The notes under the pieces were generated by a model. It saw only the letters and a list, made by a program, of their open reading frames with translations. It made no database searches and was not told the origin of the DNA. A program made the position numbers and the translations under genes. Below, piece after piece: positions 6,438 to 10,915 of a stretch of 64,000 nt of DNA. Numbering within the stretch: the stretch's first letter is position 1; each line of letters starts with the position of its first letter. This DNA is from Neocallimastix sp. 'constans' (taxonomy: Eukaryota): NCBI GenBank assembly GCA_050613775.1, contig JBODTK010000015.1:248001-312000 (forward strand). Reading direction: 5' to 3'.

Positions 6438-6951
6438 ATGTCCAATTTATGTGTATTAAGATTGATTGAAGAAAGAAATCAATTAAAGAGAGGTATATGA
6501 ATTATATATATATATATATTCATTAGTAATATTTTCTATATCTAAATCATTAATTTATAACGTAATTTAACCTATAAATAAATATATTTGTAGATTCGAT
6601 TCCGGGTTTTAAAGTTGGACCATTAAAAACAAAAGATGGTAATTACGATATATTAAATTGGGAAGCTTATATTCCGGGTACAAGGTATTATTATAGCGAT
6701 CATATCATTTCATAATTATAATAAAAATAGAAAAAAGAAAAAGAAAAAGAAAAAAGATTACAATATAATTTAATAAAAAATTTAATAAAAAAAATTTTTT
6801 TTTTAATATTTTTATTATTTTCTTTCATTATCAATCATTATGATATGATTAAAACATGTTAAGAGGAACTTCATGGGATGGAGGAATTTTTAAATTAAAT
6901 TTAAAATTTTCAAAAGGTCTGTCTATATATTTTAATTATATCTAATAGTAA

Positions 6952-6988
<37 letters not shown>

Positions 6989-7854
6989 AAATAAAATAAA
7001 TTGAAAATTGAAAACTAAAATCTAAAAAACTAAAAATATTTTATTAATATTTATAAAATATAAATATTTATTTTATTAGATTACCCATTAAAACCACCAA
7101 TTTGTACATTTACTCCACCAGTCTTGTATGTAGAATATATATAATTATATATTATACGTTCTATAAAAAAAAAAAAAAAAAATTTTTTTTTTATTTTAAA
7201 TTATTAATCAATATTAATTTTTATTAATTTCAACATATACATACATCTATTTTACATTATATATAAATATATTTAAAGCCATCCAAATGTTTATTTATCT
7301 GGTAAATAATATTGTTGAATACTTTAACAAAAAAAAATTTTTTTTTTTTTTTATTTTTTTTATTTTTCAAGAATATGACTTTATACTAATTAATTCAACT
7401 AATATAAATCTTTTTAAAATAATAATTTAAAAAAAAAAAAAAATTAATAATAATAATATTAATACAAATATGCAAATTAAAAATTAAAAATTAAAAATTA
7501 TAAAAAAAGGGGATGTATGCCTTTCTATATTAAATGAATATGAAGTATATTTCAATTTCTAAAATAATTATCACTTTTATAAAAAAATATTAATTTCGTG
7601 ATACTAATGATATTTAAATATTTATATATTAATTATCTATTATTATATATTTATCATAGGATTGGAAACCTTCAATTTCAATAAGGGATATTTTAATTGG
7701 AATTCAGTCTTTATTAAATGAACCAAATCTTGACAGTCCAGCTCAAGTAAATATATATATATAAAACTATTAATAAGAAAATAGAATTTTTATATAAATA
7801 TTTATATATATTTTTTATTCTAATACTAAAAATTTCTATATTTCTATATATTTA

Positions 7855-7896
<42 letters not shown>

Positions 7897-8194
7897 AATA
7901 TTCCTAATAAAAAAAATTAATATATATCTATATAAATATAAAAGCATGCTGCTTATATTTTATGCCAAGAAGATAGAATGGAATATGAAAGAAAATTAAT
8001 GATCCAAGCTAAAGTAAAAAAAATAATAATTTATTAAATTTATAATAAAAAATATATAATATATATATCTAGTAATTATAATTAATATTATTAATTTATT
8101 TTTAATTTTTTATTGCTTTAATACTAAAAATAATTAAAATGTTTAGAATCATTATGATATTAATAATGTAGGCTATATGAAAAGACATTATTAA
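6438..8194 (+). CDS. UBC9: SUMO-conjugating enzyme E2, divergent UBC9-like, 168 aa, 9 exons
   Basis: Exons 6438-6492, 6594-6684, 6864-6916, 7080-7125, 7279-7301, 7510-7544, 7660-7746, 7945-8013 and 8147-8194, all GT-AG, 507 nt, open frame: [172 protein letters not shown]87 and the catalytic C93 (7518-7520) fall at Ubc9 numbering, and the Ubc9-type insertions (KTKDG loop; two residues at 100-101) are present. Confidence 0.92.
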
Positions 8195-9583
8195 AATTTT
8201 AAAGTTAATTTGATTAAAAAAAAAAATTTTTTTGGAAAATTATTAAATGAAATTTTGGAAAATTTATTTTAATTACAGTTTTATCAGAATTAAAAACAAT
8301 AATTCATAAAACATCTAAAGTTAAATGAATTTATAGAAATTAAAAAAAAAATTAAAATAAAAATAAAATAAAATAAAAATAAAAAAATAAAAAAAAAAAA
8401 AAAAAGATATTAAAGTTAAAATATATTATTATTATTTAATAATTTTTTTTTTATAATAAAATATTAAAATCAAAATTAAAAAAAAAAATTTTTTTTTTCT
8501 TATATCAATTAAAAATTTATAAAAATTTATTATGATTATAGTTTAATTATATAATGATCATTATTTCTATTTTATTATGATACTAGTTAATTATTATTAT
8601 CATTATTATTATTAAAAAGGAATATATATTTTATATCTAAATTATATCTTTAATAATATAGGATTAATAGTAATCAATAAAAATATATTAATGAAATGCA
8701 TTAAAACGAATACAAGCTACTCACAACTATTCGTTCCATAAAATTAATTCTTTTAAAATTTTTGATATTTAAAATTATTTATGATATATTTATAAATATT
8801 CATAATACCAGTTTAACTTTTAATATTTTTTTATTTGGTTGATCATAGATCGATTATATAATTACGTTATTTTATAGATTTAAGTTATGAATATAAATAA
8901 GATTAATTAATTTTATATATATATATATAATTAATGTAAATTATTAGTATTTATATCGAATTAATAAGGTGAATTATAATTTTTATAATTAAAACTTTAT
9001 TATGAATATTATAATTTTTATAATTTTTAAAATTTGTTATAGTAAATTTTTATTATTATTATTATTAATTGTGAATTTTTTGAGAAATAATTACTCGGTT
9101 AATTTATAAATAAAAAAAAAAAATTAATATTAATATTATTATTAGAGAAATTGATTTGAATTCTATATAAATGAAACAAAAGAGATAATAAATATAAACA
9201 AATAAACAAATAAAAATATATTAACAATTCTTTGAATTTTTTTTTATTTATTTATTTATATTATCAATGTTTTTTTCTTTAATCTTTTTTTTTTTTTTTT
9301 TTTTATTTTTTATTTTTATTTTTTTTTAGAGTAATATTACTAGGAAAAAATATAAATAAATATAAATAATAAATATATATATGTATATTTTTATTTTATT
9401 TTTTTTTTCTTGTTTACTTAATGGAATAATAAATTTTAGTCCTACAAAAATAAATTTTTTATATCTCTAATTCATATTTATATCTTTACACAAACAAAAT
9501 ATTTATTAAAAATTTGTATTTTAAAAATATATATAATTTTTTTTTATAATATTTTATTTTATTTTTTTCTTTTTAAACTTTTA

Positions 9584-9618
<35 letters not shown>

Positions 9619-9765
9619 TAAAAAAGTAAAAATTACATATTAAAAATTAGTTTATTTAAAATCATTTAATGAATTATAATTCATTAAAATAATTTTATAT
9701 TGAAATTGATAAATTATGTAAATTTACTTTTATTTGTAAATTATTATCAATTGCAATATAAATTT

Positions 9766-9810
<45 letters not shown>

Positions 9811-10122
9811 TATTTAATTTTATTTCTTATCAAATTTATTTTTGTATTATATTATCTATTTTTATTATTTAGAATATTTATAAAAATTCTTTTATCGATT
9901 AATGAATTATTCAAGTTGCATTTTTTTTAAGTCTATATATTTAAATAGAATACTTTATGTTCCATTTTTTTTTTAAAAAAAAAAAAATATTAAATGTCAT
10001 GATTATATTTGTATAAAAATTGTTTAATTTTTTCCTTGATATAGGTTTTTATAATGGTTTCATACTCTATATATATATATAATTTTTTTGTATTTCAGTT
10101 TTATTATTTTGGTTTATAAAAG

Positions 10123-10915
10123 TTAGAAACCACCACCGCTTTGTTCGACAACAACTTTAATTGTTTCATCATCTTCCATACCCAACTATTATTAAACATT
10201 GTTACATAAAAATAATATATGAAAAATATATTAAAAAAAATATATATGTATATATATATATATGCATATTTATATATTTATTTATATTATTATAATAATG
10301 ATATAATAATAATATAATAATGATATAATGATATAATTATAATTAATATATATGTATATCCTTTTTTATTTTTTTTAAAAAAAAAAAAGATTTTTATTCT
10401 AATTTTTATTATAAATTATTTATAATTTTGTAACATTAGTTATATTTACTTCATTCGGTGTTTGCTTTGGAGATAATCTTTGTCCTTCAAATAAGAATCT
10501 AGTTTTTCCCTTATCCTGTTATATATATATTATAATTTTTTTTTTTTTTCAAATTAATATTAATCATCAAATTAATATAATCAAAAAATCAAATAATAAT
10601 AAAAAATTCATATAAAATATTATAATTTTATTAAAAGATAAAAATAAAAAAAACATACATGTCCAGTTTTTTCTATATATATATCCATTAATTGTTTTAA
10701 TGGCAATGATCTGTTCATAGTGACCACTAATAAAATATATTTATTATTATTATTATTATTATTATTAATTTTTTTTTAATTTTTTGGGGAGGTATTTACT
10801 TCTTATTTCATCCTAATTATTATTTCTGTTATATAATATATATAATAATATATTTATTAATATTACCTATTTCAATACCGTCACCACCAACAACATGAAT
10901 TCTAATTGTAGCCAT
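10123..10915 (-). CDS. SUMO-like small modifier, divergent SMT3/SUMO-family member, 81 aa, 4 exons
   Basis: Exons 10915-10867, 10726-10659, 10515-10450 and 10185-10123, all GT-AG, 246 nt: MATIRIHVVGGDGIEIVVTMNRSLPLKQLMDIYIEKTGHDKGKTRFLFEGQRLSPKQTPNELGMEDDETIKVVVEQSGGGF. It carries the SUMO signatures PLxxLM, RFLFEGQR, QTPxELxMEDxxxI and EQxGG. There is a likely 5'UTR intron (donor ~11042, acceptor just before the ATG). Confidence 0.9.

What the first reader, a model, noticed from the sequence alone, without database searches (positions are those of the whole stretch)
6438..10915. Linked pair of a divergent UBC9-like E2 and a divergent SUMO-like modifier: candidate second, private SUMO pathway
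Seen: two intact, cleanly spliced genes lie tail-to-tail with ~1.9 kb between their stop codons, and neither appears in the ORF track. One encodes an E2 colinear with Ubc9 (C93), the other a SUMO-fold protein ending EQSGG-GF. Known: Ubc9 and SUMO are normally highly conserved, and in model fungi they are single-copy and unlinked. Inference: physical linkage of a cognate enzyme and modifier, both diverged at interface residues yet free of lesions, suggests a co-evolving, co-inherited paralogous conjugation module alongside the housekeeping SUMO system. I know of no description of this in gut fungi.
Basis: partly seen in the sequence, partly recalled or inferred. Interest (0 to 1): 0.92.

Follow-up and report, generated by a model that had tools for sequence, protein, structure and literature searches.

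The report
Gut-fungus rewired SUMO enzyme-tag pair
Anaerobic gut fungi carry a SUMO-type protein tag and a SUMO-type attaching enzyme as neighbouring genes, both with the catalytic parts intact but the usual partner-binding surfaces changed, so the pair likely runs a tagging route with its own target code, probably beside (or possibly instead of) the ordinary SUMO system.

Summary
Both genes are real: a 9-exon, 168-aa Ubc9-type E2 (C93) and a convergent 4-exon, 81-aa SUMO-type modifier, 1,928 bp apart, each identical to an annotated Neocallimastix protein. The two genes have consecutive GenBank accessions in 9 of 9 annotated copies (Neocallimastix, Piromyces, Anaeromyces); 0 of 80 ordinary UBC9 loci showed a SUMO nearby (only 31 had 3 kb downstream). 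Across genera the E2 is 88-92% and the modifier 94-99% identical, after a very long stem. The catalytic core and Gly-Gly tail are kept. Near-invariant residues of the SIM groove (F36V, K37T, K39N, K46Q), the E2 backside (R17K, H20S) and the consensus-site pocket (T91D, K76T, A131H, P88L) are replaced in all copies, and the tag has no N-terminal tail. An adjacent UBC9/SUMO-class pair is co-induced by heat shock in N. californiae (PMC10512342). Predicted product: a mono-, SIM-blind tag with a non-standard acceptor code. The key claim, that canonical UBC9/SMT3 coexist, could not be tested (no genome held): about 55% second pathway, 35% sole rewired system; either is surprising. Not found in print in five searches, and not found earlier by this scan on other DNA.

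The parts
6438..8194 (+). Divergent Ubc9-type E2 gene, 9 exons, 168 aa, with an 11-residue C-terminal extension coded mostly by exon 9
   Evidence: Spliced translation identical to P0048; Pfam UQ_con; best PDB matches are Ubc9
6438..6492 (+). E2 exon 1: helix 1 with R13 kept and K14N, W16L, R17K
6594..6684 (+). E2 exon 2: H20S, P21I, F22P on the backside / E1-binding face
6864..6916 (+). E2 exon 3; the intron after it (CDS position 199, phase 1) is shared with ordinary UBC9 genes
   Evidence: 13 of 38 intron-bearing ordinary loci share it
7080..7125 (+). E2 exon 4: K76T (and K74I in this copy only)
7279..7301 (+). E2 exon 5: H83-P84-N85 and Y87 kept, P88L
7510..7544 (+). E2 exon 6: T91D, catalytic C93 (codon 7518-7520), acidic 100 replaced by Tyr
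7660..7746 (+). E2 exon 7: S127, P128, A129, Q130 kept
7945..8013 (+). E2 exon 8: A131H, acidic 132 replaced by Ala
8147..8194 (+). E2 exon 9: lineage-specific C-terminal extension and stop
   Evidence: the 168-aa form is in 5 of 7 cluster members
8195..10122 (.). 1,928-bp AT-rich spacer between the two stop codons (convergent 3' ends)
10123..10915 (-). Tail-less SUMO-type modifier gene, 4 exons, 81 aa
   Evidence: Spliced translation identical to P0060; Pfam Rad60-SLD; best PDB matches are SUMO
10867..10915 (-). Modifier exon 1: fold starts at residue 3-4, no N-terminal tail
10659..10726 (-). Modifier exon 2: SIM-groove strand and helix with F36V, K37T, K39N, T42L, K46Q (SUMO1 numbering)
10450..10515 (-). 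Modifier exon 3: R63, acidic 67, G68, R70 kept
10123..10185 (-). Modifier exon 4: D86E, acidic 89 to Lys; E93, Q94 and di-Gly (10132-10137) kept; two residues follow

Best explanation
The two neighbouring genes encode a Ubc9-type enzyme and a SUMO-type tag that likely work as a matched pair, predicted to attach single, SIM-blind tags to lysines chosen by a code other than the standard hydrophobic-K-x-E site, and probably form a second pathway beside an ordinary SUMO system that could not be checked here. Steps. (1) Shown: both genes are intact, adjacent across three genera and strongly conserved. (2) Inferred: a Ulp-type protease trims the 1-2 residues after the di-Gly, and a SUMO-type E1 (Aos1/Uba2) activates the tag, because all 9 conserved E1/tail positions are kept. 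(3) Inferred: the tag moves to C93 of this E2; the catalytic core is kept (6 of 6), but helix 1 and the following loop, which dock on the E1 and on a second SUMO, are rebuilt, so a co-adapted Uba2 surface or paralog is predicted. (4) Inferred: the pocket that reads the +2 glutamate (S89, T91, K74, K76) has lost K76 and gained an acidic D91, and the hydrophobic pocket has A131H, so standard sites would be disfavoured and neutral or basic +2 residues tolerated. (5) Inferred: with no N-terminal tail, no consensus lysine and a changed backside, no chains form; with F36, K37, K39 and K46 replaced, ordinary SIM readers (Siz/PIAS, STUbLs) would not bind, so the tag would act sterically or through its own readers. 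(6) Suggested by published data: the pair is co-induced in heat stress, pointing to a proteostasis role. Origin (inferred): vertical, from fungal UBC9 and SMT3 on the long gut-fungal stem, a burst of change followed by stasis.
For: Consecutive accessions in 9 of 9 GenBank copies from six assemblies; no SUMO near ordinary UBC9 in 0 of 80 loci, of which 31 had 3 kb or more downstream (17 distinct at 90% identity). E2: 25 of 117 conserved positions changed in all 7 copies, including W16 (96% conserved), R17 (93%), P21 (96%), P88 (102 of 102), T91 (98 of 102); 5 of 11 literature-named binding sites changed against 20 of 106 elsewhere (Fisher p 0.055), 0 of 6 catalytic sites (sites from passages of bioRxiv 10.64898/2026.09.10.750468, and PMC6391914). 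Modifier: 6 of 8 conserved SIM-groove positions changed against 7 of 44 elsewhere (p 0.002; groove list recalled), F36 kept in 39 of 39 other SUMOs, 0 of 9 E1/tail positions changed; 3 residues precede the fold against 14 or more in 37 of 39 others. Tree stems 1.43 (E2) and 1.85 (modifier) against tips of 0.05 or less. Adjacent JGI models 702757 (KOG0424) and 702758 (KOG1769) both up at 15 and 60 min after heat shock, log2 1.6/1.4 and 2.3/1.9 (PMC10512342 dataset S2). The table of domains lost in gut fungi has no match to MIZ, PINIT, zf-Nse, Rad60, UAE_ or SUMO, while the controls photolyase and FeoA are found (PMC6712302), so Siz-type E3 domains, which need ordinary SUMO and Ubc9 surfaces, seem to persist.
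Against: No canonical gut-fungal Ubc9 or SUMO turned up in any search; these searches could not list a genome's paralogs, so this neither shows nor excludes them. All three KOG0424/KOG1769 rows in the heat-shock table can be explained by the two linked copies alone. One pair per Piromyces or Anaeromyces assembly and near-frozen sequences look like essential housekeeping genes. Ubc9 is single-copy in 40 of 41 fungi surveyed (PMC7691676). The gut-fungal stem spans about 500 My (PMC6712302), so some of the long branch is time; the E2 enrichment is only borderline (p 0.055). The lost-domain table needs one hit at E 0.01 in any of 26 taxa, so it is weak. No E1, E3 or protease gene was found in the window. 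The background rate of gene-order conservation between gut-fungal genera was not measured, so retention of linkage may be passive. The JGI ids were not matched to these genes by sequence.
Confidence: 0.55

Rival explanations
1. These are the only UBC9 and SUMO genes of gut fungi: the whole phylum rewired its one SUMO pathway on its long stem, moving the two genes together and co-evolving E1, E3, readers and target sites to the new surfaces.
For: No canonical copy seen in any search; one pair per Piromyces or Anaeromyces assembly and two in the Neocallimastix assemblies; housekeeping-grade conservation, 94-99% for the tag; all KOG0424/KOG1769 rows of the heat-shock table fit the two linked copies; stress induction is ordinary for SUMO genes (recalled); the E2 nests among fungal Ubc9 and shares the position-199 intron; Ubc9 is single-copy in 40 of 41 fungi.
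Against: It needs the only SUMO to lose F36 (39 of 39 elsewhere), its basic groove and its tail, and the only Ubc9 to lose W16, R17, P21, P88 and T91 (93-100% conserved elsewhere), while Siz-type domains are not on the lost list. Bringing two essential unlinked genes together is harder to explain than co-inheriting an accessory module.
Confidence: 0.35
2. The genes are neighbours and diverged, but function as ordinary, interchangeable SUMO components (or not as a cognate pair): the changes are tolerated drift and the linkage is a frozen accident.
For: Folds and catalytic residues are fully ordinary; maize class II SCE1f, though divergent, still conjugates canonical SUMO1a (as cited in PMC7194008); background gene-order conservation was not measured; no shared upstream motif was found.
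Against: Changes are concentrated on binding surfaces and spare catalytic and tail residues; they are fixed in all copies across three genera; a chance adjacency of a cognate enzyme and tag among more than ten thousand genes is very unlikely a priori; co-induction at the same two time points.
Confidence: 0.08
3. The pair came in as a unit by horizontal transfer or on a virus or mobile element.
For: Linked enzyme-plus-tag units are typical of mobile modules (recalled); gut fungi have many acquired genes (PMC6712302); a FLYWCH/Mutator-like fragment lies 19 kb away.
Against: Eight and three host-like introns, one shared with ordinary UBC9 genes; nesting among fungal Ubc9; viral contigs hold only 33-37% E2 matches and 36-39% SUMO matches, and the three viral E2 loci show no SUMO; no closer kin among 1.84 billion representatives, next single-domain hits 47% or less.
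Confidence: 0.02

Closest known systems
Canonical Ubc9/Hus5/UBE2I with Smt3/Pmt3/SUMO1-3
   Same: Same folds, gap-free colinearity, about 43-55% (E2) and 35-47% (tag) identity, C93, HPN, Y87, S127, di-Gly with a short pro-extension, E93-Q94, acidic 67.
   Different: Genes adjacent; consensus-site pocket, backside/E1 face and SIM groove replaced at near-invariant sites; no N-terminal tail or consensus lysine on the tag; 11-residue C-terminal extension on the E2.
Cereal and peanut class II SCE1 with non-canonical SUMO / SUMO-like (SUL, DSUL) genes
   Same: A divergent E2 isotype with a more acidic surface near the active site, assumed to have co-evolved with SUMO-like genes into new conjugation routes (passages of PMC7194008).
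   Different: Class II has a one-residue deletion near the active site (absent here), is weakly expressed, still conjugates canonical SUMO1a, and the passages read report no linkage to its tag. The gut-fungal pair is adjacent, near-frozen across genera and of separate origin.
Extra SUMO-pathway copies in other fungi (Rhizophagus irregularis: 5 SUMO, 2 Ubc9)
   Same: Shows that a fungus can carry a second Ubc9 and extra SUMOs (PMC7691676 Table 1).
   Different: One of 41 species; no linkage or interface analysis in the section read; no gut fungus was surveyed.
Operon-encoded Ubl-E1-E2 systems of Asgard archaea and bacteria (Bil/Bub) (recalled, no call)
   Same: Enzyme and tag are inherited side by side as a module.
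   Different: Those are prokaryotic operons with their own E1 and peptidase; here two spliced, convergent SUMO-lineage genes, with no E1 or peptidase seen in the window.

Membership tests
Ubc9 (SUMO E2) family | UBC fold with catalytic Cys93 and HPN motif, colinear with Ubc9 including its two insertions | tested here: met
   the top 41 ranked structure matches are Ubc9/SCE1; best bit scores 149-193 for Ubc9 against 110 for the next E2
Ubc9 (SUMO E2) family | Phylogenetic placement among Ubc9 orthologs | tested here: inconclusive
   nests with fungal Ubc9 (SH-aLRT 97) on a very long branch, quick tree, no non-Ubc9 outgroup and no chytrid rows
Ubc9 (SUMO E2) family | Pocket for the hydrophobic-K-x-E consensus (P128, A129, Q130, A131; S89, T91, K74, K76) | tested here: not met
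   T91D, K76T, A131H and neighbouring P88L in 7 of 7 copies; site list
Ubc9 (SUMO E2) family | Basic backside patch for non-covalent SUMO binding (R13, R17, H20) | tested here: not met
   R13 kept; R17K in 7 of 7; H20 is S in 6 and F in 1; site list
Ubc9 (SUMO E2) family | Forms a thioester with SUMO through the SUMO E1 | not testable with these tools
   needs an in vitro assay
SUMO/Smt3 family | Beta-grasp fold closest to SUMO; Rad60-SLD domain | tested here: met
SUMO/Smt3 family | C-terminal E-Q-x-G-G with a short pro-extension | tested here: met
   6 of 6 copies; one His follows in 5, two residues here
SUMO/Smt3 family | SIM-binding groove (F36 with K37, K39, K46; list recalled) | tested here: not met
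   F36V, K37T in 5 of 5 full-length copies, K39N, K46Q in 6 of 6; F36 in 39 of 39 other SUMOs
SUMO/Smt3 family | Flexible N-terminal tail, often with the chain-forming lysine | tested here: not met
   3 residues before the fold against 14 or more in 37 of 39 others; no consensus lysine
Second (paralogous) SUMO pathway | Canonical UBC9 and SMT3 present in the same genome | not testable with these tools
   no genome held; indirect hint only from the lost-domain table
Second (paralogous) SUMO pathway | Dedicated E1, E3 or protease | tested here: inconclusive
   none among 148 of 198 GC-rich fragments and 9 long frames of the window; short exons are easily missed; rest of genome not searchable
Plant class II SCE1 | One-residue deletion near the active site; membership of the plant clade | tested here: not met
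   no gap against human Ubc9 over 1-154; feature

The most novel reading that the evidence does not exclude
Gut fungi own a phylum-wide, two-gene SUMO-derived conjugation module that is orthogonal to ordinary SUMOylation: a tail-less, SIM-blind tag, a matched E2 whose acidic D91 pocket reads a new acceptor code (neutral or basic at +2), kept as a linked, heat-inducible unit for tens of millions of years. It would be a naturally evolved orthogonal SUMO pathway and, if no canonical copies exist, the first eukaryotic lineage whose only SUMO has given up the SIM groove.
Probability: 0.5. Interest if true: 0.87.

Novelty: new variant of a known kind. Interest (0 to 1): 0.76.

Why it matters
Ubc9 is the textbook single, near-invariant E2, and the SUMO-SIM groove and the hydrophobic-K-x-E code are treated as universal. 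A conserved fungal pair that keeps catalysis but replaces all three recognition surfaces is surprising under either reading: a second, insulated pathway (how new ubiquitin-like pathways split off from old ones, an open question so far argued mainly from plant class II SCE1), or a phylum whose only SUMO system was recoded. It is directly testable with two small proteins, gives a ready-made candidate for an orthogonal SUMO tag/E2 pair for protein engineering, and names a stress-induced system in fungi being developed for biomass conversion.

Tried and rejected
Whole-genome search: no genome held. Read support: a run search listed 24 runs, none holding more than 0.19 of the words; two attempts to lay them gave nothing, so these runs are not used as evidence. 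Metagenome scan with the P. finnis E2: 122 pattern matches, 0 confirmed, so that collection seems to lack gut-fungal loci; the scan with ordinary Ubc9 gave 80 loci, none under 31% GC, hence no gut-fungal canonical copy, which is uninformative for the same reason. Representative search with the modifier: 1,563 hits, top 150 seen, no recognisable gut-fungal canonical SUMO; 10 unnamed candidates looked up, the named ones were Mucorales, a rust and an amoeba. Supplements of PMC8665504, PMC10066034 (one file unreadable), PMC12398058 and PMC10512310 had no SUMO/UBC9 terms; passages of PMC4327156, PMC6414434, PMC5737911, PMC8406330 and PMC12341934 pointed to no usable gene table. ESM Atlas gave only generic UBC and SUMO clusters. 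A complex prediction of E2 with tag was never run; it was dropped because such a textbook pair tends to pass by likeness to solved structures. No shared upstream motif: 0 shared GC-containing 8- to 10-mers in the two 1-kb upstream regions, one partial heat-shock-element-like word upstream of the E2 only. dN/dS not computed: DNA of only one copy was available. An 8-exon, 160-aa E2 model was rejected for the 9-exon model. Viral origin rejected.
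Full report
Setting. The window is about 15% GC with short GT-AG introns, ankyrin, CotH and GPCR-like genes. No whole genome is held. The two proteins are letter-for-letter identical to proteins annotated in Neocallimastix californiae and N. lanati, so this is an anaerobic gut fungus (Neocallimastigomycota).

Observation. The E2 has nine exons from 6438 to 8194; all 8 introns are GT..AG and the 507-nt CDS gives P0048, 168 aa. 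My first 8-exon model missed the last exon. A spliced alignment with the P. finnis protein independently returned the same 7 introns in the stretch given. The modifier has four exons on the minus strand from 10915 to 10123 and gives P0060, 81 aa. The stops are 1,928 bp apart. Sequence and structure searches put the E2 with Ubc9 (S. pombe E 3.5e-56; next E2 class 8.5e-31; model pLDDT 85.6) and the modifier with SUMO (model pLDDT 87.5).

Linkage. The E2 cluster and the modifier cluster list GenBank accessions that are consecutive in 9 of 9 cases: P. finnis ORX59185/59184, A. robustus ORX59049/59048, Piromyces sp. E2 OUM57827/57828, N. californiae ORY52146/52147 and ORY70838/70839, N. lanati KAG4099357/4099356 and KAG4094067/4094068, and a further assembly (organism not shown) KAL6630740/6630741 and KAL6617736/6617737. 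That consecutive numbers mean adjacent gene models is an inference from submission practice; orientation was not seen. As a control, 80 loci of ordinary UBC9 from metagenomes (the best 80 of 578 confirmed) were searched with 17 SUMO queries and a profile: 0 of 80 had a SUMO, while the window was detected (profile E 5e-5). Only 31 of the 80 had 3 kb downstream (17 distinct at 90% identity) and 22 had 3 kb on both sides (12 distinct), and short-exon SUMO genes could be missed. How often neighbours are kept between gut-fungal genera in general was not measured.

Constraint and history. E2 copies are 88-92% identical among named genomes (86% lowest, with one metagenome copy) and full-length modifier copies 94-99%. 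In quick trees the gut-fungal clade has a stem of 1.43 (E2, 54 rows; a subset of the available rows) and 1.85 (modifier, 36 rows) changes per column against tips of 0.05 or less. With a stem of about 564 to 66 Mya (PMC6712302 passages) this is roughly a 2- to 4-fold faster stem, then stasis; long-branch caution applies. The E2 nests among fungal Ubc9 (SH-aLRT 97) and shares the intron at CDS position 199 with 13 of 38 intron-bearing ordinary loci (one match among eight introns is modest evidence). No closer relative of the modifier exists among 1.84 billion representatives, and viral matches are distant. Vertical descent is the simplest reading.

What changed. Against 102 ordinary Ubc9 rows (44, 58 metagenome representatives), 25 of 117 conserved positions are replaced in all 7 gut-fungal copies. 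They include K14N, W16L, R17K, H20S/F, P21I, F22P on helix 1 and the next loop, and K76T, P88L, T91D, acidic-100-to-Tyr, A131H, acidic-132-to-Ala/Ser around the substrate pocket. The metagenome half is biased at 91 and 74 by the scan patterns, but in the half T91 is 42 of 44 and P88 44 of 44. Passages of bioRxiv 10.64898/2026.09.10.750468 name P128-A131 as the hydrophobic pocket and S89, T91, K74, K76 as the +2 glutamate pocket; passages of PMC6391914 name R13, R17, H20 as the backside patch needed for chains. Five of these 11 sites are changed against 20 of 106 elsewhere (p 0.055); 0 of 6 catalytic sites are. That helix 1 also docks on the E1 is recalled, in line with entry titles 5fq2 and 3ong. 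In the modifier, against 39 single-domain SUMOs, 13 of 52 conserved positions are changed: 6 of 8 in the SIM groove (list recalled; p 0.002), 0 of 9 in the E1/tail set, plus D86E and acidic-89-to-Lys (SUMO1 numbering). It has no N-terminal tail and no consensus lysine.

Expression. Complete spliced proteins occur on short unnamed contigs (an 80-aa modifier on 515 bp, shorter than the 793-bp gene; a 168-aa E2 on 3,597 bp), which suggests transcripts (inference). In the heat-shock dataset S2 of PMC10512342 (supplement search and one part read; methods passages), adjacent N. californiae models 702757 (KOG0424) and 702758 (KOG1769) are both up at 15 and 60 min and not called at 0, 30 and 45 min; a second KOG1769 model, 700100, is up at 0 and 60 min. 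These ids were not matched by sequence; they are probably the linked copies. The table lists only differentially expressed genes, so it cannot count paralogs.

The open question. Nothing on hand could list all Ubc9 and SUMO genes of a gut fungus. For a second pathway: the number of near-invariant surfaces lost, the linkage, and the absence of MIZ, PINIT, zf-Nse, Rad60, UAE_ and SUMO from the supplement of PMC6712302 that lists 106 lost domains (10 files searched; controls found), a weak sign that Siz-type ligases persist. For a sole rewired system: no canonical copy was ever seen, the copy number and conservation look housekeeping-like, the long stem gives time, and Ubc9 is single-copy in 40 of 41 fungi (PMC7691676, section 3 part 1 read, no gut fungus included; its three supplements were listed, not read). 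I put these at 0.55 and 0.35. The mechanistic predictions (mono-tag, SIM-blind, altered acceptor code) hold under both and are all untested. No E1, E3 or protease was seen in the window (148 of 198 GC-rich fragments and 9 long frames scanned).

Known comparisons and novelty. The pair works like Ubc9 and SUMO and descends from them, but fails the tests for the consensus pocket, the backside patch, the SIM groove and the tail, so it should not be filed as a plain member. The nearest idea in print is plant class II SCE1 with SUMO-like genes (passages of PMC7194008). Literature searches (listings only): SUMO+Ubc9+Neocallimastix 0 papers; anaerobic fungi+Neocallimastigomycota+SUMO 1, off topic; Piromyces+SUMO 6, off topic by title; chytrid set 1, without gut fungi; Ubc9 paralog phrases 12, off topic by title. 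The library lacks most subscription papers, and unread supplements or GitHub datasets of gut-fungal papers may hold gene counts. Earlier notes of this scan show no such pair elsewhere.

Verdict. Real, conserved, linked and functionally suggestive: a new variant of the SUMO system, interest 0.76. One genome-wide tblastn decides between second and sole pathway; four small assays test the mechanism.

Noticed in passing
window 6483-6494/6594-6595 (E2 residues 16-19): W16L plus R17K create a hydrophobic-K-x-D consensus site on helix 1 of the E2 while K14, the self-modified lysine of mammalian Ubc9 (recalled), is lost; a possible shifted auto-modification site.
   Followed up: no
window 8147-8194: The E2's 11-residue C-terminal extension sits on its own exon, is kept at the same length in 5 of 7 cluster members and ends in a basic/aromatic word; two database models miss this exon.
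   Followed up: partly
window 10799-10824 (- strand): A 26-nt purine-rich stretch in intron 1 of the modifier has a good acceptor and donor and would bring a stop in frame: a possible poison exon (seen).
   Followed up: no
window about 12480-13428 (- strand): Spliced C1D/Sas10/Utp3-family gene (Rrp47/Lrp1-like) is the next gene upstream of the modifier.
   Followed up: partly
window about 15950-16719 (- strand): Small spliced EF-hand (calmodulin-like) gene.
   Followed up: partly
window 29666-30343 (+): FLYWCH-containing, Mutator-like transposase fragment.
   Followed up: no
window 32490-35213 (+): Class C GPCR-like gene with a bacterial-type solute-binding domain fused to 7tm_3.
   Followed up: no
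window 21232-25551 (-), 36549-43343 (+), 55543-57030 (-): Two long intron-poor ankyrin-repeat genes and a CotH kinase gene.
   Followed up: no
window about 2100-3650: Slightly GC-richer, stop-ridden stretch that looks like a decayed mobile element; no Pfam match.
   Followed up: partly
Neocallimastix assemblies: Each of three Neocallimastix-type assemblies holds two copies of the linked pair (E2 copies 92% identical), against one in Piromyces and Anaeromyces, as expected from a genome duplication or hybrid origin.
   Followed up: partly
L084 5001-5228 and L085 5001-5228: SUMO-like genes on two viral-collection contigs (36-39% to the modifier), one from a giant-virus bin.
   Followed up: no
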